From an uncultured Clostridia bacterium (GTDB taxonomy: Bacteria > Bacillota > Clostridia > TANB77 > CAG-508): DNA of 64,000 nt. Where the stretch lies: NCBI GenBank assembly GCA_944389475.1, contig CALXMM010000002.1:19483-83482 (forward strand). The letters run 5' to 3'. The position numbers were made by a program, and so were the translations under genes. The notes under the pieces are model-generated. The model saw nothing but the letters and a program-made list of their open reading frames with translations, had not been told where the DNA came from and did no database searches. Position 1 is the stretch's first letter; the number at the start of each line of letters is the position of its first letter. Of the stretch, positions 7,007 to 53,413 are shown in pieces.

Positions 7007-8050
<1,044 letters not shown>

Positions 8051-8060
8051 TGATTAAAAT

Positions 8061-8095
8061 TTTAGAGGTTGCTTTTATAAGTAACCTCTAAAAGT
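8061..8095 (+). other. Intergenic gap-pgk hairpin (attenuator or processing structure)
   Basis: An 8-bp inverted repeat, tagaggtt...aacctcta, sits 10 nt after the gap stop codon. Confidence 0.4.
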
Positions 8096-8255
8096 CTTAA
8101 TTATCTTAAAAGAGTAAGCAAAATAATTGTAAAGGTTATATATGTGCCTTTGTATTTTAAAATTTTAAGACATATATATAGCCTTTACAATTAAGCCACT
8201 TCCGTTAGAGTGGACTATAGCTGGGCTTACCAAGTGAAGAAAAGGAGTGAAATGT

Positions 8256-9440
8256 ATGGATAAAAAAACTGTTAGAGATATAGACTTAAAAGGCAAAAAA
8301 GTAATTGAGAGATGTGATTTTAATGTACCATTATTGGATGATGGAACAATAAGGGACAACACAAGAATCGTTGCAGCATTACCAACAATAAAATATTTAT
8401 TAGAACAAAATTGTTCAATAATTTTATGCTCTCACTTAGGAAGACCAAAGGGACAAGTTGTGCCAGAATTATCAATGGCACCAGTAGCAAAAGAATTAAC
8501 TAGATTATTAGGACAAGAAGTTAAACTTGCAAAAGATGTAGTTGGTGAAGATGCTATGAGATTAGCATCAGAATTAAAACCAGGTGAAGTAATGTTACTA
8601 GAAAATGTAAGATTCGAACCAGGAGAAGAAAAAAATGACCCAGAACTTGCTGAGAAATTTGCAAGTATGGCAGAAGTATTTGTAAATGATGCTTTTGGTA
8701 CAGCACATAGAGCACATGCTTCTACAGCAGGAATTGCTGATTATTTACCTGCAGTAGCAGGATTCTTAATCGAAAAAGAATTAAAATTCTTAGGAGATGC
8801 TATAAATAATCCAAAGAGACCATTTGTTGCTATTTTAGGTGGAAAGAAAGTTTCAGATAAAATAGGAGTAATAGATAGTTTATTAGAAAAAGTAGATACA
8901 TTAATGATTGGTGGAGCTATGGCTTATACATTCTTTAAATCAATGGGATATTCAGTAGGAAATTCTATATGCGAAGAAGATAAGTTAGATTTAGCACAAA
9001 GCTTAATTGAAAAAGCAAAAAATAAAGGTGTTAAATTAATGCTACCAGTAGATACAAGAGTTGGAAAAGAAGTAAGTGAAGATACAGAAAGTAAAGTAGT
9101 AAGTTATAAAGAAATCCCAGATGGTTGGGAAGGACTAGATATAGGTTCAGAAACTATAAAAATGTATACAGATGAATTAAGAAAAGCAGCAACAGTATTA
9201 TGGAATGGACCAGTAGGAATATTCGAAATAGAACAATTTGCAGTTGGTACAAATGAAATAGCAAAAACTTTATCAGAAATAGACGCTGTTACAGTAATTG
9301 GAGGAGGAGATTCTGCAGCTGCTGTTAAGAAAGCAGGATTAGCTGATAAAATGACACATATTTCTACAGGTGGTGGAGCTTCTCTAGAATTCATAGAAGG
9401 AAAGAAATTACCAGGAATAGAGTGTTTAATGGATAAATAA
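8256..9440 (+). CDS. pgk: Phosphoglycerate kinase
   Basis: It begins [16 protein letters not shown]...CDFNVPL. An AAGGAG RBS lies 8 nt upstream of the ATG at 8256. Confidence 0.95.
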
Positions 9441-9528
9441 GCTACTTCTCAAATCTTTTATTTGGAAAGCAGGCTATAGTTGGCAAAGCCAACTCCTTTA
9501 AAACAATAGAAACGAAGGGAGAAATACT

Positions 9529-10281
9529 ATGAGAAAAAAAGTAATTGCTGGTAATTGGAAAATGAATATGCTTCCAAATGAAGCCATATCATGTATAGAT
9601 GAATTATCAAAATTAGTTAAAGATACTAAAAATGAAGTTATTTTATGCGTTCCATATACAGATTTATTTTATGCATTATTAACAGCACAAAATACAAATA
9701 TAAAAATTGGAGCACAAAATATGCATTTCGAAGAAAGAGGAGCATATACAGGAGAAATATCTGGACCAATGCTAAAATCAATAGGTGTTGAATATGTTAT
9801 TATAGGGCACTCTGAAAGAAGACAATATTTTGCAGAAACAGATGAAACGGTAAATAAAAAAGTAAAAGCCGCTCATAAATATGGCTTAAAGCCAATTGTA
9901 TGTGTTGGTGAAACATTAGAGCAAAAAGAAACAGGAAAAACTGTAGAAATAATAACAAATCAAACAAGATTAGCTCTAGATGGTTTAAACAAAGAACAAG
10001 TAGAAGGAACTATAATAGCATACGAACCAATTTGGGCAATTGGAACAGGAAAGACAGCAACATCAGAAGATGCTAATAACTCTATAAAAGAAATAAGAAA
10101 AGAGATAGCAAAAAATTATGGACAGGAAACAGCTGATAGAGTTATAATACAATATGGTGGAAGCGTTAAATCTAGCAATGCAAAAGAACTATTTACTACA
10201 TCAGATATAGATGGAGGATTAGTTGGAGGAGCAAGTTTAAAAGCTGATGAATTCGCTAAAATCGTAAATTTTGATAAATAA
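9529..10281 (+). CDS. tpiA: Triosephosphate isomerase
   Basis: It has VIAGNWKMN, IIGHSERR and AYEPIWAIGTGKTAT. Confidence 0.95.
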   Translation: MRKKVIAGNWKMNMLPNEAISCIDELSKLVKDTKNEVILCVPYTDLFYALLTAQNTNIKIGAQNMHFEERGAYTGEISGPMLKSIGVEYVIIGHSERRQYFAETDETVNKKVKAAHKYGLKPIVCVGETLEQKETGKTVEIITNQTRLALDGLNKEQVEGTIIAYEPIWAIGTGKTATSEDANNSIKEIRKEIAKNYGQETADRVIIQYGGSVKSSNAKELFTTSDIDGGLVGGASLKADEFAKIVNFDK

Positions 10282-10298
10282 GGATGGTAACTGAAATG

Positions 10299-11828
10299 AA
10301 AGATAAGCTAACGATGCTAATGATATTGGATGGATTTGGAGAAAACAGCAAATCAGAAGGAAATGCTGTTAAGCTTGCAAATACACCTAATATAGATAGA
10401 CTAATGAAAATATGGCCAACAACAGATATTCATGCAAGTGAATTAAGTGTAGGTCTTCCAGAAGGTCAAATGGGAAATTCAGAGGTAGGACACACAAATA
10501 TTGGTGCTGGTAGGATAGTTTATCAAGAATTAACTAAAATTACAAAATCAATAGAAGATGGAGATTTCTTTTCTATACCAGAATTAGTAGAAGCAATAGA
10601 AAATTGTAAAAAGAATCATTCTAAGTTACATGTTCTAGGTCTTGTATCAGATGGAGGAGTTCATGGTCATATTCGTCATTTGTTTGCAGTTCTAGAACTT
10701 GCAAAAAGAAAAGATTTCGAAGATGTTTATGTACATTGCTTTACAGATGGTAGAGATACACCACCTGCTTCAGGAGAAGGATATATAGCTAAACTAGAAG
10801 AAAAGATGAAGGAAAAAGGTGTAGGTAAAATTGCCACAATTTCAGGAAGATTTTATGCAATGGACAGGGATAAAAGATGGAACAGAGTTCAAAAAGCATA
10901 TGATGCAATGGTAAAAGGAGAAGGAATTAAAGCAACTAGTGCAATTGCAGCAGTAGAAAGTTCTTACCAAAAAGAAGTTTTTGATGAGTTTATCGAACCA
11001 ACAGTTATTTGTAATGGGGAAACACCTATTGCAACAATAGAAGATGGTGATTCTGTTATTTGCTTTAACTTTAGACCTGATAGAGCAAGAGAAATAACTA
11101 GAGCATTAGTAGATCCAGACTTTAATGAATTTGAAACAAAGAAAATGAATTTAGATTATGTATGCTTTACACAATATGATGCAACAATGCCAAATGTAAA
11201 AATTGCTTTTAAACCAGAAAGATTAGTAAATACATTTGGAGAATATGTAAGCAAAAAAGGTTTAAAACAATTAAGAATAGCAGAAACAGAAAAATATGCA
11301 CATGTAACATTTTTCTTTAATGGTGGAGAAGAAAAACAATATCCAGGAGAAGATAGAATTTTAGTACCTTCTCCAAAGGTAGAAACATATGATATGAAAC
11401 CAGAAATGAGTGCTATAGAGGTTACAGATAAAGTTGTTGATGCAATTAATTCTAAAAAATATGATACTATTATTTTGAATTATGCAAATCCAGACATGGT
11501 TGGACATACAGGAAATCTAGAAGCAGCTATTAAAGCAATAGAAACAATAGATACTTGTGTAAAAAGAGTAGTGGATGCAGTAGAAGCACAAGATGGAGTA
11601 GTAATTATTACAGCTGACCATGGAAATGCGGAACAAATGATAGATTATAAAACAGGTGAACCACATACAGCTCATACAACTAATTTAGTTCCTCTAATAC
11701 TAGTAGGAATGAAAGATGTAAAACTAAAAGAAGGTAAACTTGCAGATTTAGCACCAACAATGTTAGAAATTATGGGACTAGATAAACCAGCTGAAATGAC
11801 AGGAGAAAGTTTAATAGTAAAAGAATAA
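10299..11828 (+). CDS. gpmI: 2,3-bisphosphoglycerate-independent phosphoglycerate mutase
   Basis: It has LMILDGFG and ITADHGNAE. The start may instead be at 10284. Confidence 0.93.
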   Translation, partial: KDKLTMLMILDGFGENSKSEGNAVKLANTPNIDRLMKIWPTTDIHASELSVGLPEGQMGNSEVGHTNIGAGRIVYQELTKITKSIEDGDFFSIPELVEAIENCKKNHSKLHVLGLVSDGGVHGHIRHLFAVLELAKRKDFEDVYVHCFTDGRDTPPASGEGYIAKLEEKMKEKGVGKIATISGRFYAMDRDKRWNRVQKAYDAMVKGEGIKATSAIAAVESSYQKEVFDEFIEPTVICNGETPIATIEDGDSVICFNFRPDRAREITRALVDPDFNEFETKKMNLDYVCFTQYDATMPNVKIAFKPERLVNTFGEYVSKKGLKQLRIAETEKYAHVTFFFNGGEEKQYPGEDRILVPSPKVETYDMKPEMSAIEVTDKVVDAINSKKYDTIILNYANPDMVGHTGNLEAAIKAIETIDTCVKRVVDAVEAQDGVVIITADHGNAEQMIDYKTGEPHTAHTTNLVPLILVGMKDVKLKEGKLADLAPTMLEIMGLDKPAEMTGESLIVKE

Positions 11829-11861
11829 TTAAATTAATACTTATATGGGGGGAAAAATAAA

Positions 11862-12593
11862 GTGTCGACTTCGACTAGGATGAAAGAACTATATAAAGAC
11901 ATACAACATAGTCTATTTGACATGATACCAGAAAAATGGAATAAAATATTTTTGTATGCATCTGTAATTGATGGAAGAAATAATTTAGAAACTGGAGAAA
12001 TGTACTTTTATTATATTCCAAAAGGAATATTAAAAAGAGAGCCGGTAAATGTGTATGAAGTTCCAAATAAATTTAATTTGGATGAAAATGCATATTTTAA
12101 ATTGGCAGACAATTTGTATGGAATTATAAAAAAATTAAGAAAAGAATATATTTCTGTGAATGGGGCTTTATGGAGTTATGTTATTATTTCTATAGAAGAT
12201 TTTATGTTTCGAGTAGAATATAACTTCGAAAATTTAGCAAGCTCCCCATATAGTAATTATGATAGACATTTAGTTTTTAGATATAAATATTTAAAAACAG
12301 GTTTAAATGCATATAGCAAAAGAGAAAGACAAATGGTTTTAGATTATTTGAACCAAGAAGAAAAATCTGATAAAAAAGTAGATGTATATGAGGAATCATT
12401 ATATGCTACACCAAATAAAAACCTAGTTAATTTTGAAAAAGATGCACCAACAAAATCTAGAAGAGAAGAAAAGATGGAAGAAATATACGAACTGGAAAAA
12501 GATAGTGAGTTTTGGCCACACGATAAGAAATATATAATCGTAGAAAGCAAACCAAAAAATAAAAATCAAATTATAGATACTAATAAAGATTGA
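11862..12593 (+). CDS. DUF600/YezG-like (immunity-protein-like) domain protein with a charged C-terminal extension of about 90 aa
   Basis: The pattern IPEKW-KIFLY...YFYYIPKG...NG-LW...YKYL matches what I recall of the DUF600/YezG family. No adjacent LXG or YeeF toxin is present. Confidence 0.45.
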   Translation: MSTSTRMKELYKDIQHSLFDMIPEKWNKIFLYASVIDGRNNLETGEMYFYYIPKGILKREPVNVYEVPNKFNLDENAYFKLADNLYGIIKKLRKEYISVNGALWSYVIISIEDFMFRVEYNFENLASSPYSNYDRHLVFRYKYLKTGLNAYSKRERQMVLDYLNQEEKSDKKVDVYEESLYATPNKNLVNFEKDAPTKSRREEKMEEIYELEKDSEFWPHDKKYIIVESKPKNKNQIIDTNKD

Positions 12594-12607
12594 AAGGAGA
12601 AATAAAA

Positions 12608-13300
12608 ATGACATATTCAAAGGAATTAGAAGATATGTGCACGGTAGCAAAAGGAGTAAACCATGGACCAGCACCAATACCAGAAGAAGGAAAATGGGTA
12701 AAAGCAAAAGAAATAAAAGATATATCAGGTTTAACACATGGTATTGGTTGGTGTGCACCACAACAAGGAGCTTGTAAATTAACATTAAATGTAAAAGATG
12801 GAATTATTCAAGAAGCTTTAATCGAAACTATAGGATGTTCAGGAATGACACATTCAGCTGCTATGGCAGGCGAAATTTTAACAGGAAAAACAATATTGGA
12901 AGCTTTAAATACAGACTTAGTATGTGATGCAATAAATACTGCTATGAGAGAATTATTCCTACAAATAGTATATGGAAGAACACAAACAGCTTTCTCAGAA
13001 GGTGGACTTCCAGTAGGTTCTGGACTTGAAGATTTAGGAAAAGGACATACATCACAAGTTGGAACAATATATTCTAGTACATTAAAAGGACCAAGATATC
13101 TACAATTAACAGAAGGATACATAGTTGAATTAGGATTGGATAAAGATGACCAAATAATTGGTTATAAATATGTACATATGGGAAAAATGATGGATTACAT
13201 AAAAAGTGGAATGGATCCAATGAAAGCAATAGAAAAAGCATCAGGAACTTATGGAAGATTTGATGAAGCTGTTAAAACAATAGACCCAAGAGAAAAATAA
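12608..13300 (+). CDS. IscU/NifU-like putative Fe-S scaffold-like protein with an extra C-terminal region of about 100 aa
   Basis: The segment GWCAPQQGACKLTLNVKDGIIQEALIETIGCSGMTHSAAMAGEILTGKTILEAL parallels the IscU cysteine pattern. An AAAGGAG RBS lies 8 nt upstream of the ATG at 12608. Confidence 0.55.
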   Translation: MTYSKELEDMCTVAKGVNHGPAPIPEEGKWVKAKEIKDISGLTHGIGWCAPQQGACKLTLNVKDGIIQEALIETIGCSGMTHSAAMAGEILTGKTILEALNTDLVCDAINTAMRELFLQIVYGRTQTAFSEGGLPVGSGLEDLGKGHTSQVGTIYSSTLKGPRYLQLTEGYIVELGLDKDDQIIGYKYVHMGKMMDYIKSGMDPMKAIEKASGTYGRFDEAVKTIDPREK

Positions 13301-13351
13301 AATGATAGAAATTTATATTAAAAATGAGACTTAAGATAAGAAGGTAAAAAA

Positions 13352-13768
13352 ATGAATATTTATTTTTCAGGTTCAATATATGGTGGTAGACAAAAACTTG
13401 AAGCGTACAAAAAATTAATAAATGAACTAAAAAAATACGGAAATGTTTTGGATGAAGAAGTTGGCGATAATGATGTAATAGCAAATGAAAAATATACTTC
13501 AGATAATGATATTTTCGAAAATTTAGTAAAGAAAATTGATATAGCAGATTTAGTTTTTGCAGAAGTTACAGTACCATCATTAGGTGTTGGATATGAAATA
13601 GGTTATGCAGATAGTCATAATAAAAAAATAATATGTGTTTATGATAAAAACATAACGCCAAAAATTACAACTATGTTAAGAGGTAATAGTAGATTAAAAA
13701 TTATTCCATATATAGATTTAAATGAGATTATAAATAATTTGGAAAATATATTAAAGGAGGAAGATTAA
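13352..13768 (+). CDS. 2'-deoxynucleoside 5'-phosphate N-hydrolase (DNPH1/RCL) / nucleoside 2-deoxyribosyltransferase-family protein
   Basis: IYFSGSIYGGRQ...YGNVLDEEV and LVFAEVTVPSLGVGYEIGYA closely match the DNPH1 motifs IYFCGSIRGGRED and VVVAEVTQPSLGVGYELG. Confidence 0.7.
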   Translation: MNIYFSGSIYGGRQKLEAYKKLINELKKYGNVLDEEVGDNDVIANEKYTSDNDIFENLVKKIDIADLVFAEVTVPSLGVGYEIGYADSHNKKIICVYDKNITPKITTMLRGNSRLKIIPYIDLNEIINNLENILKEED

Positions 13769-14773
13769 ATGGCAGTAACATTCGAGAGCTATGAAAGAAG
13801 AATAGACCAAATCAAACCAGTAATGGAAAAATACGGAATAAAAGATTTTGAAGATGCATTAAAAATATGTACGGACAAAGGATTTAATCCATATGAAATC
13901 GTAAAGGGAGTTCAACCAATTTGTTTTGAAAACGCTTGTTGGGCGTACACATTAGGTGCTGCAATAGCAATAAAAAAAGGATGTACTAAAGCAGCAGATG
14001 CTGCAAAGGCAATAGGTGAAGGATTACAAGCTTTTTGTATACCAGGTTCAGTTGCTGATGATAGAAAAGTAGGATTGGGACATGGTAATTTAGCATCTAT
14101 GCTACTTTCTGAAGATACAAAATGCTTTGCATTTTTAGCTGGACATGAAAGCTTTGCAGCAGCAGAAGGAGCAATTGGTATTGCAAATTCAGCAAACAAA
14201 GTAAGAAAAACACCTCTAAGAGTTATTTTAAATGGTCTTGGAAAAGATGCAGCACAAATAATTTCTAGAGTAAATGGATTTACATATGTTAAAACAGATT
14301 TTGACTTTTTCAACAGCAAAGTAAATGTAGTAGAAGAAATTCCATATTCAAATGGAGAAAGAGCAAAAGTTAGATGTTATGGAGCAAATGATGTTAGAGA
14401 AGGTGTAGCTATAATGTGGTTAGAAGATGTTGATGTATCTATTACAGGTAACTCAACAAACCCAACTAGATTCCAACATCCAGTTGCAGGAACATACAAA
14501 AAAGAAAGATTAGCTGCAGGTAAAAAATATTTCTCTGTTGCTTCAGGAGGAGGAACAGGAAGAACATTACATCCAGATAACATGGCAGCAGGACCAGCTT
14601 CTTATGGTATGACAGATACAATGGGAAGAATGCACTCAGATGCACAATTTGCAGGAAGTTCATCTGTTCCAGCTCACGTTGAAATGATGGGATTAATAGG
14701 AATGGGTAACAACCCAATGGTTGGAGCTTCTGTAGCAGTTGCAGTTGCAGTAGAAGAGGCTATGAAAGCGTAA
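13769..14773 (+). CDS. GGGtGRT-family protein of uncharacterised function
   Basis: It contains the eponymous motif ASGGGTGRTLHPDNMAAGPASYGMTD. It starts 1 nt after the stop of the DNPH1-like gene, and its RBS (AAGGAGG) lies inside that gene's 3' end. Confidence 0.65.
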   Translation: MAVTFESYERRIDQIKPVMEKYGIKDFEDALKICTDKGFNPYEIVKGVQPICFENACWAYTLGAAIAIKKGCTKAADAAKAIGEGLQAFCIPGSVADDRKVGLGHGNLASMLLSEDTKCFAFLAGHESFAAAEGAIGIANSANKVRKTPLRVILNGLGKDAAQIISRVNGFTYVKTDFDFFNSKVNVVEEIPYSNGERAKVRCYGANDVREGVAIMWLEDVDVSITGNSTNPTRFQHPVAGTYKKERLAAGKKYFSVASGGGTGRTLHPDNMAAGPASYGMTDTMGRMHSDAQFAGSSSVPAHVEMMGLIGMGNNPMVGASVAVAVAVEEAMKA

Positions 14774-14935
14774 GATATGATAAATGTAATAATATAATAA
14801 TTAGCTGTTTTTGGTGAAATACTTTAAGAAGATTTATGAAAGGACTTCTAATAATATTAGAGGTTCTTTTATTATGTGGAAAAATCAAAGATTTTGGATA
14901 CATAATAAAAATAATTGTTTTAAATAAAATAAAAA

Positions 14936-14978: not shown

Positions 14979-15320
14979 TTGTCACACATGGAATCTAAAC
15001 TTATAATTAAGCGGTGTGATGATCTTGGACATGTTTATGTTTTCGAAATTATGGGCTATTGTCCAACACTTCTTGAAGTAGAATTCGAAAGAATGGCAGG
15101 TCGATTGGTTTCTGGTGATTGCTCTAATTTAGAAGGTGAATTGAAGGATTTCTGTAAATTCCAACGAAGAAATAATGGAATTAGGATTGACTTTCAAATC
15201 TTCGAATCGCCATACTCATTGGATGTAAATAACATTCATATGAATGAAAAAGGGCATACCACTAGAATAATTATTCGAGTGCGAAGGAGTATTATAAGGA
15301 TACTCAAAGAGCACCTTTAG
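14979..15320 (+). CDS. Small hypothetical protein (113 aa; start possibly the ATG at 14988)
   Basis: It has its own promoter and terminator, codon usage slightly GC-richer than the neighbouring genes, and cysteines. I recognise no family. Confidence 0.4.
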   Translation: MSHMESKLIIKRCDDLGHVYVFEIMGYCPTLLEVEFERMAGRLVSGDCSNLEGELKDFCKFQRRNNGIRIDFQIFESPYSLDVNNIHMNEKGHTTRIIIRVRRSIIRILKEHL

Positions 15321-15467: not shown

Positions 15468-16754
<1,287 letters not shown>

Positions 16755-19679: not shown

Positions 19680-19753
19680 TCGGGTATGGCCAAGCGGTAA
19701 GGCAGTAGGCTCTGACCCTACGATCGTTAGTTCGAATCTAACTACCCGAACCA
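19680..19753 (+). tRNA. tRNA-Gln (anticodon CUG)
   Basis: It folds as a cloverleaf by hand: acceptor tcgggta/tacccga, D-arm gcc-aagcggtaa-ggc, anticodon stem gtagg/cctac with loop cuCUGac, T-arm gttag-ttcgaat-ctaac, and an encoded CCA. It resembles B. subtilis tRNA-Gln. Confidence 0.85.
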
Positions 19754-53063: not shown

Positions 53064-53397
53064 AAGAGTAAATTAGACAGTCGCGTATAGCAAGGTCGAA
53101 AGGCAGCGTACGAGGAAAGTCCGGGCTCCATAGAGCAATGATGCTGGATAACGTCCAGTGAGGGAAACCTTAAGGAAAGTGCAACAGAAAATAACCGCCA
53201 GAAATGGTAAGGGTGAAAAGGTGAGGTAAGAGCTTACCGCAGATATGGTGACATATCTGGTCAATGTAAACCCCATCTGGAGCAACACCGAGCTTGAGGG
53301 TTAAGACTGCTCGTCATCCTCTTATTGGTGGCTTGAGCCATATGGTAACATATGGAATAGATAAATGACTGTCCAAGACAGAACCCGGCTTATAGAT
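53064..53397 (+). ncRNA. rnpB: RNase P RNA (bacterial type A)
   Basis: It has the universal P4 sequences GAGGAAAGTCCGGGCTCCATAG and ACAGAACCCGGCTTA, and a 5' CAGACAGTCGC like E. coli M1 RNA. P1 pairs agagtaaatt with agatttactt. Confidence 0.8.
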
Positions 53398-53413
53398 TTA
53401 CTTATATATCAAA

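What the first reader, a model, noticed from the sequence alone, without database searches (positions are those of the whole stretch)
12608..14773. Tightly coupled IscU-like / DNPH1-like N-glycosidase / GGGtGRT three-gene module of unknown function
Three co-oriented genes are packed with no intergenic space. The GGGtGRT gene starts 1 nt after the DNPH1-like stop, and its RBS is embedded in that gene. Gene 1 is an IscU-like protein that keeps the scaffold cysteine pattern (C-x7-C ... GCSGMTHSAAMA) but has a 100-aa C-terminal extension not found in IscU. Gene 2 is an unusually clear DNPH1/RCL homolog, matching both catalytic motifs of the dNMP N-glycosidase. Gene 3 carries the GGGtGRT motif, a family known only by that motif with no assigned function. 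An Fe-S/thiol-scaffold-like protein, a nucleotide N-glycosidase and an unknown enzyme in one translationally coupled unit looks like a small nucleotide-directed pathway, which could be nucleotide modification or salvage, or a depletion or signalling function. Nothing in the sequence links the unit to the surrounding glycolytic genes.
Basis: partly seen in the sequence, partly recalled or inferred. Interest (0 to 1): 0.75.

Follow-up and report, generated by a model that had tools for sequence, protein, structure and literature searches.

The report
NifU-like/GGGtGRT pair with inserted nucleotide hydrolase
The three genes are real and co-expressed, but only two of them (an IscU-like iron-sulfur protein and the "GGGtGRT" protein) form a universal, extraordinarily conserved gene pair of unknown function in anaerobes; the DNPH1-like nucleotide hydrolase between them is an optional cassette that related genomes gain and lose.

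Summary
Three co-oriented genes lie at 12608-14773, and the DNPH1-like stop abuts the GGGtGRT start. A 51-nt gap separates genes 1 and 2.

The "three-gene module" reading is only partly supported. In 96 of 98 loci the NifU-like gene sits directly upstream of GGGtGRT; the other two loci are truncated contigs. These loci span Clostridia, Bacilli, Collinsella, Alistipes and Methanobrevibacter, plus an unassigned branch at 52% identity. The two proteins co-diverge (r≈0.95).

The DNPH1-like gene occupies the slot only in a patchy subset of one clade. Sister genomes carry nothing there, or palindromic repeats, or a phage-type MazG-like pyrophosphatase.

The pair is more conserved than the glycolytic enzymes beside it: 89-96% and 83-95% identity, against 64-84%. 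At 50% clustering essentially all intact full-length members seen fall into one cluster.

The NifU-like protein has four invariant Cys. GGGtGRT is Rossmann-like, has invariant glycine-rich loops, and has no solved structural relative. Published data show iron-dependent, abundant expression and no assigned function.

My best reading is a two-subunit Fe-S protein of unknown substrate with a hitch-hiking (d)NMP N-glycosidase.

The parts
12608..13300 (+). NifU/IscU-like protein, 230 aa. It is the small subunit of the conserved pair. The IscU-fold core spans roughly residues 40-120, and there are family-specific N- and C-terminal domains. Invariant residues include C49, C56, C77, C106, H44 and D107.
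13301..13351 (+). 51-nt spacer carrying the ribosome-binding region of the DNPH1-like gene. This is the 5' edge of the variable slot.
   Evidence: Sequence. The slot is 23-73 nt in relatives without an insertion and 114-529 nt where repeats or a gene are present.
13352..13768 (+). DNPH1/Rcl-like nucleotide N-glycosidase, 138 aa. It is a lineage-specific accessory cassette.
   Evidence: PF05014 at 3e-12. PDB 2klh, 4fyh and 8rpt at about 1e-19. The motifs GSIYGGR, PSLGVGYE and TTMLRG are conserved, and the Asp69 position is an invariant Leu. The gene is present only in the window, L016 and L081-L089. Its GC3 of 0.108 matches host genes.
13754..13760 (+). Shine-Dalgarno sequence AAGGAGG of the GGGtGRT gene, read as the codons K-E-E of the DNPH1-like C-terminus.
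   Evidence: The insertion-free relative L005 has the same ...AAGGAGGAAAATTAA|ATG as plain spacer. The cassette ORF therefore runs through the ancestral RBS to a pre-existing TAA.
13769..14773 (+). GGGtGRT protein, 334 aa. It is the large subunit of the conserved pair. It has an N-terminal helical domain and a Rossmann-like alpha/beta domain. Invariant loops are GHESFAAA (125-132), GLGK (156-159), TGNST (226-230) and GGGxGRTxHPD (260-270). C203 is the only invariant Cys.
14836..14872 (+). Strong hairpin with an A-tract before and a U-tract after. It is the probable intrinsic terminator ending the transcription unit after GGGtGRT.
   Evidence: strand folding gives -16.5 kcal/mol, z = -5.5, with 0 of 200 shuffles as stable. 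The consensus scan lists no canonical G+C-rich terminator-like site in 9900-14773 (gpmI to GGGtGRT); the + strand sites it lists further upstream are short 5-6 bp stems inside pgk and tpi.
7022..12593 (+). Upstream context on the same strand: gap (7022-8050), pgk (8247-9440), tpi (9529-10281), gpmI (10284-11828) and a YezG-like protein (11862-12593).
   Evidence: ORFs. The same order is found in L001-L020.
15474..16754 (+). Enolase, the downstream member of the glycolytic cluster. It is separated from GGGtGRT by a terminator, promoter-like sites and a 110-aa ORF.

Best explanation
The functional unit is a two-gene operon, not three genes.

The conserved pair:
- Gene 1 (NifU-like) and gene 3 (GGGtGRT) encode the small and large subunits of one iron-sulfur protein found in strict anaerobes.
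- The small subunit uses an IscU fold that has been converted from a labile scaffold into a stable cluster holder. It has four invariant Cys (C49, C56, C77, C106). The positions of IscU Asp39 and His105 are Ala and Val.
- The large subunit is a helical domain plus a Rossmann-like domain. Four invariant glycine-rich loops sit at strand ends, together with many invariant Arg, Lys, His and Asp residues. These features suggest a pocket for a phosphorylated ligand, either a sugar phosphate or a nucleotide.
- The protein is iron-costly, very abundant and under stronger purifying selection than the glycolytic enzymes next to it.
- In the window's clade it is transcribed as part of the gap-pgk-tpi-gpmI operon.

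The accessory gene:
- The DNPH1-like gene is a (d)NMP N-glycosidase that would release a base and (deoxy)ribose 5-phosphate.
- It entered the insertion-prone spacer between the two subunit genes. Its reading frame now runs through the ancestral GGGtGRT ribosome-binding site, so it is expressed and translationally coupled with the operon.
- It is dispensable for the pair.

What is shown and what is inferred:
- Shown: the anatomy, the universal pairing and co-divergence, the patchy distribution of the cassette, the conservation levels, the fold classes and the invariant residues.
- Taken from the literature: iron regulation, abundance, and a mild glucose-signalling phenotype.
- Inferred: the heteromer, stable cluster binding, a phosphorylated substrate, and the activity of the cassette.
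For: Pairing:
- The NifU-like gene is directly upstream of GGGtGRT in 96 of 98 loci, and the other 2 are truncated contigs. The loci cover Clostridia, Bacilli, Collinsella, Alistipes and Methanobrevibacter, plus an unassigned divergent branch from metagenome contigs.
- The spacer runs from -17 to about 70 nt outside the window's clade.
- Identities of the two proteins to the window co-vary, r = 0.95-0.96.

Conservation:
- In the same syntenic loci, identity to the window is GGGtGRT 89-96% and NifU-like 83-95%. The flanking enzymes are Pgk 64-77%, Tpi 71-84%, GpmI 75-82% and Eno 73-76%.
- GGGtGRT is 78-88% identical across phyla.
- Among the 150 best 50%-identity representatives listed, the nine inspected were one intact full-length sequence (P0363), one genuine 52% outlier (P0394), a tandem partial duplication and frameshifted or chimeric sequences. 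Most of the remainder match only part of the query.

Cluster site and fold:
- Invariant residues are given.
- The Rossmann-like fold has no specific PDB relative.

Cassette status:
- The DNPH1-like gene is absent from 79 of 80 species-representative loci.
- Within the clade it is scattered on the Tpi+GpmI tree.
- The same slot holds MITE-like repeats in L002, L010, L011, L014 and L015, and a MazG-like pyrophosphatase in L001 (PHROG 3301, 6.7e-40).
- Other intergenic slots of the same operon hold NUDIX plus a guanylate-kinase-like gene, LytB, or Uma2.
- The RBS read-through is shown.
- The cassette evolves at an ordinary rate, 65-75% identity.

Operon: there are 14-nt and 0-nt junctions, and a terminator follows GGGtGRT.

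Literature:
- B. thetaiotaomicron BT0173-74 falls 11-13-fold under iron deficiency (PMC10434189).
- The C. pasteurianum GGGtGRT protein changes several-fold across the varied-iron conditions compared (PMC5395762).
- BT0173-4 transposon mutants grow normally on glucose and show 2-fold derepression of Cur-controlled Roc. The same screen also hit pfkA (bioRxiv 10.64898/2026.04.10.717545).
Against: - No direct evidence exists that the two proteins form a complex or bind a cluster.
- The NifU-like AF2 model is poor (pLDDT 60). The GGGtGRT motif region, residues 260-313, is unmodelled with pLDDT below 50.
- No substrate can be named.
- The context hints conflict. Glycolysis or phosphoglycerate mutase neighbours occur in two lineages. 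sufD-sufS lies nearby in Collinsella. Nucleotide-metabolism neighbours occur in several others.
- Within the carrier lineages the DNPH1-like gene has been kept intact and in the same position down to 65-70% identity. It is therefore under selection there.
- The occupants of the slot and its surroundings are repeatedly nucleotide hydrolases (DNPH1-like, MazG-like, NUDIX). This could reflect a functional tie rather than hitch-hiking.
- Some of the cross-phylum identity may reflect horizontal transfer rather than constraint. Methanobrevibacter copies are 87-88% identical, and integrases lie next to the pair.
Confidence: 0.68

Rival explanations
1. The IscU-like protein, the DNPH1-like glycosidase and GGGtGRT form one nucleotide-directed pathway. 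For example, the glycosidase supplies (deoxy)ribose 5-phosphate or a base, and the Fe-S/GGGtGRT enzyme converts it further, feeding glycolysis or modifying or salvaging nucleotides.
For: - The trio order and the stop/start junction are conserved across carriers at 65-100% identity.
- The same slot in L001 holds another nucleotide-pool enzyme, a MazG-like pyrophosphatase.
- A NUDIX gene lies 29 nt downstream of GGGtGRT on the same strand in Methanobrevibacter.
- A PRPP-synthetase-like gene (L026) and a Cytidylate_kin2 gene (L079) lie immediately upstream of the pair, and a nucleobase permease is nearby in L042.
- NUDIX plus a guanylate-kinase-like gene sit in the same operon in relatives.
- GGGtGRT has nucleotide-binding-type loops, and its weak best Foldseek hits are eIF2B-alpha and ribose-1,5-bisphosphate isomerase-type proteins.
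Against: - The DNPH1-like gene is missing from 79 of 80 species-level loci, and from close sisters of carriers (L018 versus L016, L008 versus L087).
- The pair is equally conserved with or without it.
- Non-coding repeats occupy the same slot.
- Unrelated genes (LytB, Uma2, YezG-like) also sit in other slots of the operon.
- Most lineages show no nucleotide-related neighbours.
- The Foldseek similarity is not significant (E 0.01, TM 0.2).
- The neighbour enrichment is anecdotal: about 4 of about 16 lineages, with no formal test.
Confidence: 0.17
2. The pair is not an enzyme of intermediary metabolism. It is instead an auxiliary Fe-S cluster carrier, storage or repair system: an IscU-derived cluster holder plus a nucleotide-binding partner that loads or releases clusters.
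For: - The IscU fold is supported.
- Expression is strongly iron-dependent, abundance is high, and the genes are dispensable in vitro.
- In all Collinsella loci the pair lies 2-3 kb downstream of sufD-sufS.
- In the rumen metaproteome both proteins fall in the pre-feeding-high group that also contains cysteine synthase and several central-metabolic enzymes.
Against: - Scaffold hallmarks are lost. The Cys37 position is Gln, Asp39 is Ala (the substitution known to lock clusters on IscU), and His105 is Val. The IscU, NifU and SufU equivalog models score 18-27 bits against cut-offs of 92-192.
- No cysteine desulfurase is adjacent in the other lineages examined.
- Storage proteins are not usually conserved at about 80% across phyla.
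- GGGtGRT has a dense set of invariant polar and charged residues typical of an active site.
Confidence: 0.2
3. The extreme similarity of the pair across phyla mainly reflects recent horizontal spread on or next to mobile elements among gut anaerobes, rather than exceptional functional constraint.
For: - Methanobrevibacter copies are 87-88% identical to the Clostridia copy, closer than those of Clostridium species at 82-84%.
- Tyrosine integrases lie immediately downstream of GGGtGRT in three unrelated lineages: L021, L024 and L079.
- The neighbourhood differs in almost every lineage.
- Metagenome assemblies are chimeric across this gene.
Against: - Within one clade the pair is syntenic with pgk-tpi-gpmI and so presumably inherited vertically. 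Even there it has diverged 2-5 times less than those enzymes.
- GC3 matches the host.
- A genuinely divergent branch (52%) exists and still keeps the pair and its motifs.
- Transfer and strong constraint are not mutually exclusive.
Confidence: 0.15

Closest known systems
Bacteroides thetaiotaomicron BT0173-BT0174 (GGGtGRT protein plus 'NifU') and the Pfam family PF14057
   Same: It is the same two protein families encoded side by side. The window protein matches PF14057 end to end (6e-197) and is about 80% identical to Bacteroidota members (Alistipes, Parabacteroides). No function is assigned. The B. thetaiotaomicron proteins are iron-responsive, and GGGtGRT proteins are abundantly expressed in gut Bacteroidetes.
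   Different: In the window the pair is split by a DNPH1-like gene and embedded in the glycolytic operon. In the other lineages examined here the pair stands alone in variable neighbourhoods. The BT0173-74 neighbourhood itself was not examined. No experiment exists for the window organism.
IscU / NifU N-terminal domain / SufU Fe-S scaffold proteins (PF01592; TIGR01999, TIGR03419, TIGR01994)
   Same: The core fold of three strands plus helices is shared. The GC(S/G)xxxxS motif with the Cys63 equivalent (C77) is present, as is a Cys at the Cys106 position.
   Different: The protein is 230 aa, against about 125-150 aa. It has conserved N- and C-terminal additions. A C-x6-C pair replaces the Cys37/Asp39 loop. 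There is no His105 and no LPPVK-type motif (the sequence reads LNTDLVC). Equivalog scores are far below cut-off. No desulfurase is adjacent, and the protein is always paired with GGGtGRT.
DNPH1 / Rcl, 2'-deoxynucleoside 5'-phosphate N-hydrolase (PDB 2klh, 4fyh, 8rpt) within the nucleoside 2-deoxyribosyltransferase superfamily
   Same: The size and fold family match. The phosphate and ribose-binding elements described for rat DNPH1 are present as GSIYGGR, PSLGVGYE and TTMLRG; in rat these are the Gly16-Gly20 loop, Ser87, Gly89, Glu93 and the Ser117/Met119 region. E is about 1e-19.
   Different: The Asp69 position is an invariant Leu in this bacterial clade. That position is mutated to Ala or Asn in the deposited mechanistic structures, and its catalytic role rests on my own knowledge. 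Ser117 is Thr. The substrate is unknown. The gene sits inside a bacterial operon.
Two-subunit Fe-S hydro-lyases such as SdaAB/SdaAA L-serine dehydratase (analogy only, from general knowledge)
   Same: Both have a small (about 220 aa) gene followed by a larger (about 300 aa) gene, are oxygen-sensitive iron-dependent proteins of anaerobes, and are abundant.
   Different: No sequence or fold similarity was detected. Pfam finds only PF14057 and NifU_N, even at E≤10. Cluster ligands appear to lie on the small subunit, not the large one.

Membership tests
GGGtGRT protein family (PF14057) | Full-length match to the family model above the gathering score | tested here: met
   653.6 bits against a cut-off of 27, covering profile positions 1-327 of 327.
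GGGtGRT protein family (PF14057) | GGGTGRT sequence motif | tested here: met
   S259-GGGTGRT-L267. G260, G261, G262, G264, R265 and T266 are invariant, including in the 52% branch.
GGGtGRT protein family (PF14057) | Encoded directly downstream of a 230-aa NifU-like gene (an empirical rule derived here) | tested here: met
   This holds in 96 of 98 loci. In the window the two genes are separated only by the 468-nt slot that holds the cassette.
IscU/NifU/SufU Fe-S scaffold | Score above the curated cut-offs of the scaffold models | tested here: not met
   TIGR03419 scores 26.7 against 187.9, TIGR01999 22.3 against 192.4, and TIGR01994 17.9 against 92.5. Pfam NifU_N scores 22.1 against 22.0, matching only 58 residues.
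IscU/NifU/SufU Fe-S scaffold | Three cluster-ligand cysteines at the Cys37, Cys63 and Cys106 positions, plus labile Asp39 and His105 | tested here: not met
   The Cys63 and Cys106 equivalents are present (C77, C106). The Cys37 position is Gln, Asp39 is Ala and His105 is Val. Extra invariant Cys are found at C49 and C56. IscU residue roles are from general knowledge.
IscU/NifU/SufU Fe-S scaffold | Genomic association with a cysteine desulfurase (IscS, NifS or SufS) | tested here: not met
   None is present in the window's operon or in the other lineages examined. Only Collinsella has sufS, 2-3 kb upstream.
IscU/NifU/SufU Fe-S scaffold | IscU-type fold | tested here: inconclusive
DNPH1/Rcl dNMP N-glycosidase | Significant sequence similarity to solved DNPH1 over the whole catalytic domain | tested here: met
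   E is 6e-20 to 6e-19 against 12 DNPH1 sequences, covering residues 2-118.
DNPH1/Rcl dNMP N-glycosidase | 5'-phosphate and ribose-binding elements (Gly16-Gly20 loop, Ser87, Gly89, Ser117/Met119) and catalytic Glu93 | tested here: met
   GSIYGGR, PSLGVGYE (with the Ser, Gly and Glu) and TTMLRG (Thr in place of Ser117, Met kept) are at least 98% conserved in 120 homologues. Residue roles are from PMC3834327.
DNPH1/Rcl dNMP N-glycosidase | Asp69 (rat numbering) of the catalytic triad | tested here: not met
   The position aligns with an invariant Leu in the motif FExL. The role of Asp69 rests on my own knowledge and on the D69A and D69N substitutions visible in the PDB sequences.
DNPH1/Rcl dNMP N-glycosidase | Hydrolysis of dNMP to base plus deoxyribose 5-phosphate | not testable with these tools
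   This needs an enzyme assay.
Anti-phage defence or nucleotide-depletion systems (PADLOC) | Match of the component proteins to a defence-system model set | tested here: not met
   Only gene 2 gives a weak partial hit, to ThsB1 (TIR-like, 25 bits, 2e-6). That is a fold-level relative, and no ThsA or other partner is present. Genes 1 and 3, the YezG-like gene and orf110 give no hits.

The most novel reading that the evidence does not exclude
The NifU-like/GGGtGRT pair is a previously unrecognised, oxygen-sensitive Fe-S enzyme of core anaerobic metabolism. It would act on a phosphorylated intermediate at the junction of nucleotide-sugar salvage and lower glycolysis. Two observations would then be clues to its substrate rather than coincidence. 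First, nucleotide-pool hydrolases (DNPH1-like, MazG-like, NUDIX) repeatedly lie inside or beside it. Second, it sits next to phosphoglycerate mutases of two different types (GpmI here, ApgM in L090).
Probability: 0.15. Interest if true: 0.85.

Novelty: new variant of a known kind. Interest (0 to 1): 0.5.

Why it matters
GGGtGRT and its IscU-like partner are among the most conserved and most abundant proteins of gut and rumen anaerobes, and they still have no function. They are more conserved than Pgk, Tpi, GpmI or enolase in the same genomes.

This analysis shows that the real unit is a co-evolving two-gene Fe-S system. It lists the invariant residues to mutate: four Cys on the small subunit, and the glycine-rich loops, C203 and several His, Asp and Arg residues on the large subunit. 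That gives a concrete, testable entry point.

It also prevents a wrong lead. The DNPH1-like gene is an optional cassette, so it should not be used uncritically to infer the pair's chemistry.

If the pair proves to be a new central-metabolic Fe-S enzyme, it would fill a gap in models of anaerobic metabolism and of iron economy in the gut.

Tried and rejected

2. **Domain fusions as functional clues.** Long 'representatives' containing GGGtGRT were inspected. One is a tandem partial duplication of GGGtGRT itself. The others have frameshifted or out-of-frame tails, or are chimeras with an ABC ATPase, GMP synthase, SusD-like or other fragments. None gives a real architecture.

3. **Large spacers as decayed DNPH1-like genes.** tblastn and blastn found no remnants. 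The spacers are palindromic repeat elements shared between genomes, or a MazG-like ORF.

4. **A 3-Cys [4Fe-4S] site on GGGtGRT.** C34 and C119 are not conserved in the divergent branch, and only C203 is invariant. The idea was dropped.

5. **A consistent neighbourhood theme outside the clade.** Contexts differ in nearly every lineage. Only anecdotal themes emerge: glycolysis, nucleotides and suf.

6. **Foreign origin of the cassette by composition.** Its GC3 of 0.108 is the same as host genes.

7. **Defence-system reading.** This was rejected on the PADLOC result.

8. **Literature.** Of the 19 papers listed for 'GGGtGRT' (21 hold the term), the 7 relevant ones that were read assign no function. 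Many of the other hits are the same letters in primer sequences. Searches for PF14057 and the BT0173/BT0174 locus tags added nothing.


Full report
**Anatomy**

The window is a low-GC (28%) Firmicute-like genome segment. On the + strand it carries gap (7022-8050), pgk (8247-9440), tpi (9529-10281), gpmI (10284-11828) and a YezG-like gene (11862-12593). The three flagged genes follow, then a 110-aa ORF and eno (15474-16754).

- Gene 1 is best read from the ATG at 12608, giving 230 aa. Nearly all of its 120 best homologues are exactly 230 aa, and an AAAGGAG motif lies a few nt upstream of the ATG.
- Gene 2 is 13352-13768 (138 aa) and gene 3 is 13769-14773 (334 aa).
- The junctions are 14 nt (yezG to gene 1), 51 nt (gene 1 to gene 2) and 0 nt (gene 2 to gene 3).
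- The GGGtGRT Shine-Dalgarno sequence AAGGAGG (13754-13760) lies inside the last codons of gene 2.
- A 17-bp hairpin at 14836-14872 is flanked by A- and U-tracts (-16.5 kcal/mol, z = -5.5). It is the first convincing terminator after gpmI.

**Identities**

- Gene 3 matches PF14057 (GGGtGRT) end to end at 6e-197. It has no sequence relative among solved structures, even with a profile.
- Gene 2 matches Nuc_deoxyrib_tr (3e-12) and rat and human DNPH1/Rcl at about 1e-19. The phosphate and ribose-binding elements described for rat DNPH1 are the Gly16-Gly20 loop, Ser87, Gly89, Glu93 and the Ser117/Met119 region (PMC3834327). They are present here as GSIYGGR, PSLGVGYE and TTMLRG and are at least 98% conserved in 120 homologues.
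- The position of Asp69 is an invariant Leu. That position is the one replaced in the deposited D69A and D69N structures.
- Gene 1 reaches the NifU_N model only at threshold (22.1 vs 22.0 bits, 58 residues). It falls far below the IscU, NifU and SufU equivalog cut-offs.

**Is it a three-gene module?**

A scan of one genome per species returned 80 loci. GGGtGRT in them is 78-96% identical to the window protein, and they come from Clostridia, Bacilli, Collinsella, Alistipes, Parabacteroides and Methanobrevibacter.

- The NifU-like gene lies immediately upstream in 78 of the 80. The other two contigs are cut within 300 nt of the GGGtGRT start.
- A divergent branch at 52-55% identity, found in metagenome contigs, has the same pair with overlapping or abutting genes.
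- Two further lineages reached through exact-protein look-ups also have the pair.
- Overall, 96 of 98 loci carry the pair. The identities of the two proteins to the window co-vary, r = 0.95-0.96.

The DNPH1-like gene is found between them in only one of the 80 loci (L016, 65% identity). It also occurs in nine contigs recovered by looking up DNPH1-like proteins of 70-100% identity. All nine have the same order and a stop|ATG junction.

On a rough Tpi+GpmI neighbour-joining tree (no support values), carriers fall in three separate places. Each is next to non-carriers: L016 next to L018, which has a 26-nt spacer, and L087 next to L008.

In non-carrier relatives the slot takes several forms.
- It is 23-73 nt in some genomes.
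- It holds palindromic repeat elements shared among genomes in L002, L010, L011, L014 and L015.
- In L001 it holds a 111-aa MazG-like NTP pyrophosphatase (PHROG 3301, 6.7e-40; PDB 4qgp, 5e-3).

Insertion-free L005 has the sequence ...AAGGAGGAAAATTAA|ATG as plain spacer. The 'embedded RBS' therefore arises because the cassette ORF reads through the ancestral RBS to a pre-existing TAA.

Other intergenic slots of the same operon hold NUDIX plus a guanylate-kinase-like gene, LytB, or a Uma2 nuclease.

My conclusion is that the conserved module is the pair. The DNPH1-like gene is an accessory cassette in an insertion-prone operon. It is retained under selection where present (GC3 equal to host) but is dispensable for the pair.

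**How unusual is the pair?**

In syntenic loci, identity to the window is as follows.

| Protein | Identity to window |
|---|---|
| GGGtGRT | 89-96% |
| NifU-like | 83-95% |
| Pgk | 64-77% |
| Tpi | 71-84% |
| GpmI | 75-82% |
| Eno | 73-76% |
| DNPH1-like | 65-75% |

- An exhaustive HMMER search of 1.84 billion 50%-identity representatives listed its 150 best hits. The nine I inspected were one intact full-length sequence at 79% (P0363), one genuine 52% outlier (P0394), a tandem partial duplication, and frameshifted or chimeric sequences. Most of the remaining hits match only part of the query.
- 111 of 334 GGGtGRT positions and 70 of 230 NifU-like positions are invariant across all lineages, including the divergent branch.

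**What the sequences suggest**

*NifU-like subunit.*
- The invariant residues include C49, C56, C77, C106, H44 and D107.
- In the alignment to IscU, the Cys37 position is Gln and Asp39 is Ala.
- Where IscU has HC the sequence reads VC. Where IscU has LPPVK it reads LNTDL (IscU residue roles are from general knowledge).
- This looks like a permanent four-Cys cluster site rather than a labile scaffold.

*GGGtGRT subunit.*
- The model (pTM 0.76) has an N-terminal helical domain and a seven-stranded alpha/beta domain. Residues 260-313, the most conserved part, are unmodelled.
- Invariant glycine-rich loops follow four strands: GHESFAAA, GLGK(D)AA, TGNST and GGGxGRTxHPD.
- Only one Cys (C203) is invariant, together with five His and many Arg, Lys, Asp and Glu residues.
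- I infer a pocket for a phosphorylated ligand on the large subunit, served by a cluster on the small one. This is inference, not demonstration.

**Context and literature**

Outside the window's clade the neighbours vary.
- L090 has ApgM-type phosphoglycerate mutase plus a HAD phosphatase.
- Collinsella has sufD-sufS 2-3 kb upstream.
- Methanobrevibacter has a NUDIX gene directly downstream.
- L026 has a PRPP-synthetase-like gene and L079 has Cytidylate_kin2 directly upstream.
- L021, L024 and L079 have integrases directly downstream.
- L093 and L096 have unrelated genes.

Published data:
- BT0173-74 falls 11-13-fold under iron deficiency (PMC10434189).
- The C. pasteurianum GGGtGRT protein changes several-fold across the varied-iron conditions compared (PMC5395762).
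- BT0173-4 transposon mutants grow normally on glucose but show 2-fold derepression of the Cur-controlled Roc protein, in the screen that also hit pfkA (bioRxiv 10.64898/2026.04.10.717545).
- In 2025 the function was still described as unclear (PMC12078515).

**Verdict**

- The best-supported reading is an ultra-conserved, iron-dependent, two-subunit Fe-S protein of unknown substrate. In this clade it is co-transcribed with lower glycolysis, and a hitch-hiking DNPH1-like (d)NMP N-glycosidase has been inserted between its genes.
- The integrated nucleotide-pathway model remains possible (about 0.17). Nucleotide-pool hydrolases recur in or near the pair, but the evidence is anecdotal.
- The pair is a catalogued 'known unknown'. 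The DNPH1-bearing, glycolysis-embedded arrangement is a new variant of it.

Noticed in passing
window 11862-12593 (+): A YezG-like protein (PF04634, 2.7e-23; an immunity-protein family of polymorphic toxin systems) has a K/E-rich C-terminal tail. It sits between gpmI and the NifU-like gene, 14 nt before the latter. It is kept at this position throughout the clade although it evolves fast (about 41-43% identity in L007 and L011). This is an odd resident for a glycolytic operon.
   Followed up: partly
window 14988-15320 (+): A 110-aa ORF lies between the GGGtGRT terminator and eno. It has no Pfam, PHROG or PADLOC hit. Its GC3 is 0.29, against 0.11-0.15 for all neighbours. A 107-110 aa gene is called at the same position only in the nearest relatives (L081-L086). 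There is no tblastn hit in L001-L080. It may have been acquired recently.
   Followed up: partly
L001 9649-9984: In a genome whose GGGtGRT is 96% identical, a phage-type MazG-like NTP pyrophosphatase (PHROG 3301, 6.7e-40) occupies exactly the NifU-like|GGGtGRT slot that holds the DNPH1-like gene in the window.
   Followed up: yes
L002 373-620, L010 9667-10000, L011 9848-10000, L014 8458-8634, L015 9692-10000: The same slot contains AT-rich palindromic repeat elements shared between different genomes. Inverted repeats reach 188 nt. They look like MITE/REP-type insertions.
   Followed up: partly
L001 4829-5943, L009 5578-6132, L010 6098-7314, L015 4684-5280, L087 542-1787; L007 5184-6059; L014 3911-4549: In relatives, the pgk|tpi slot (or the tpi|gpmI slot) of the same operon holds a NUDIX hydrolase plus a guanylate-kinase-like gene, or LytB/IspH, or a Uma2 nuclease. 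The glycolytic operon of this clade is a mosaic that collects small inserted genes.
   Followed up: partly
L021 6979-7920, L024 11255-12490, L079 9438-10736: Tyrosine recombinase (phage integrase) genes lie immediately downstream of GGGtGRT in three unrelated lineages: two Clostridia and Alistipes. The 3' flank of this ultra-conserved gene may be an integration site for mobile elements.
   Followed up: partly
L022 and L025 (Methanobrevibacter): The archaeal copies of the pair are 87-88% (GGGtGRT) and 79-80% (NifU-like) identical to the Clostridia copy. That is closer than Clostridium species, which suggests inter-domain transfer in the gut or rumen. A NUDIX gene follows on the same strand.
   Followed up: no
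P0369, P0399, P0421, P0441, P0449, P0368, P0370: Many metagenome 'proteins' are chimeras. An unrelated N-terminal part (ABC ATPase, GMP synthase, SusD-like and others) switches abruptly into GGGtGRT. Assemblers probably join different organisms across this near-identical gene.
   Followed up: partly
L090 842-6141: In the divergent (52%) branch the pair follows a His-phosphatase, an HTH regulator, an ApgM-type cofactor-independent phosphoglycerate mutase and a HAD phosphatase. This is a second, independent juxtaposition of the pair with a phosphoglycerate mutase of a different family from GpmI.
   Followed up: partly
L027 and about 45 other Collinsella loci: The pair lies 2-3 kb downstream of sufD-sufS. 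A conserved transposase-like gene on the opposite strand lies in between, and a fumarate-reductase-type flavoprotein gene follows directly downstream.
   Followed up: partly
window 8060-8093 (+): A 15-bp terminator-like hairpin lies between gap and pgk. gap may therefore be transcribed separately, or attenuated, relative to pgk-tpi-gpmI and the genes that follow.
   Followed up: no
window 53065-53408 (+); tRNAs at 19680, 21495, 23585, 23692, 36370: RNase P RNA (class A, 279.7 bits) and five tRNA genes were found by Rfam. These are ordinary housekeeping RNAs, unrelated to the finding.
   Followed up: no
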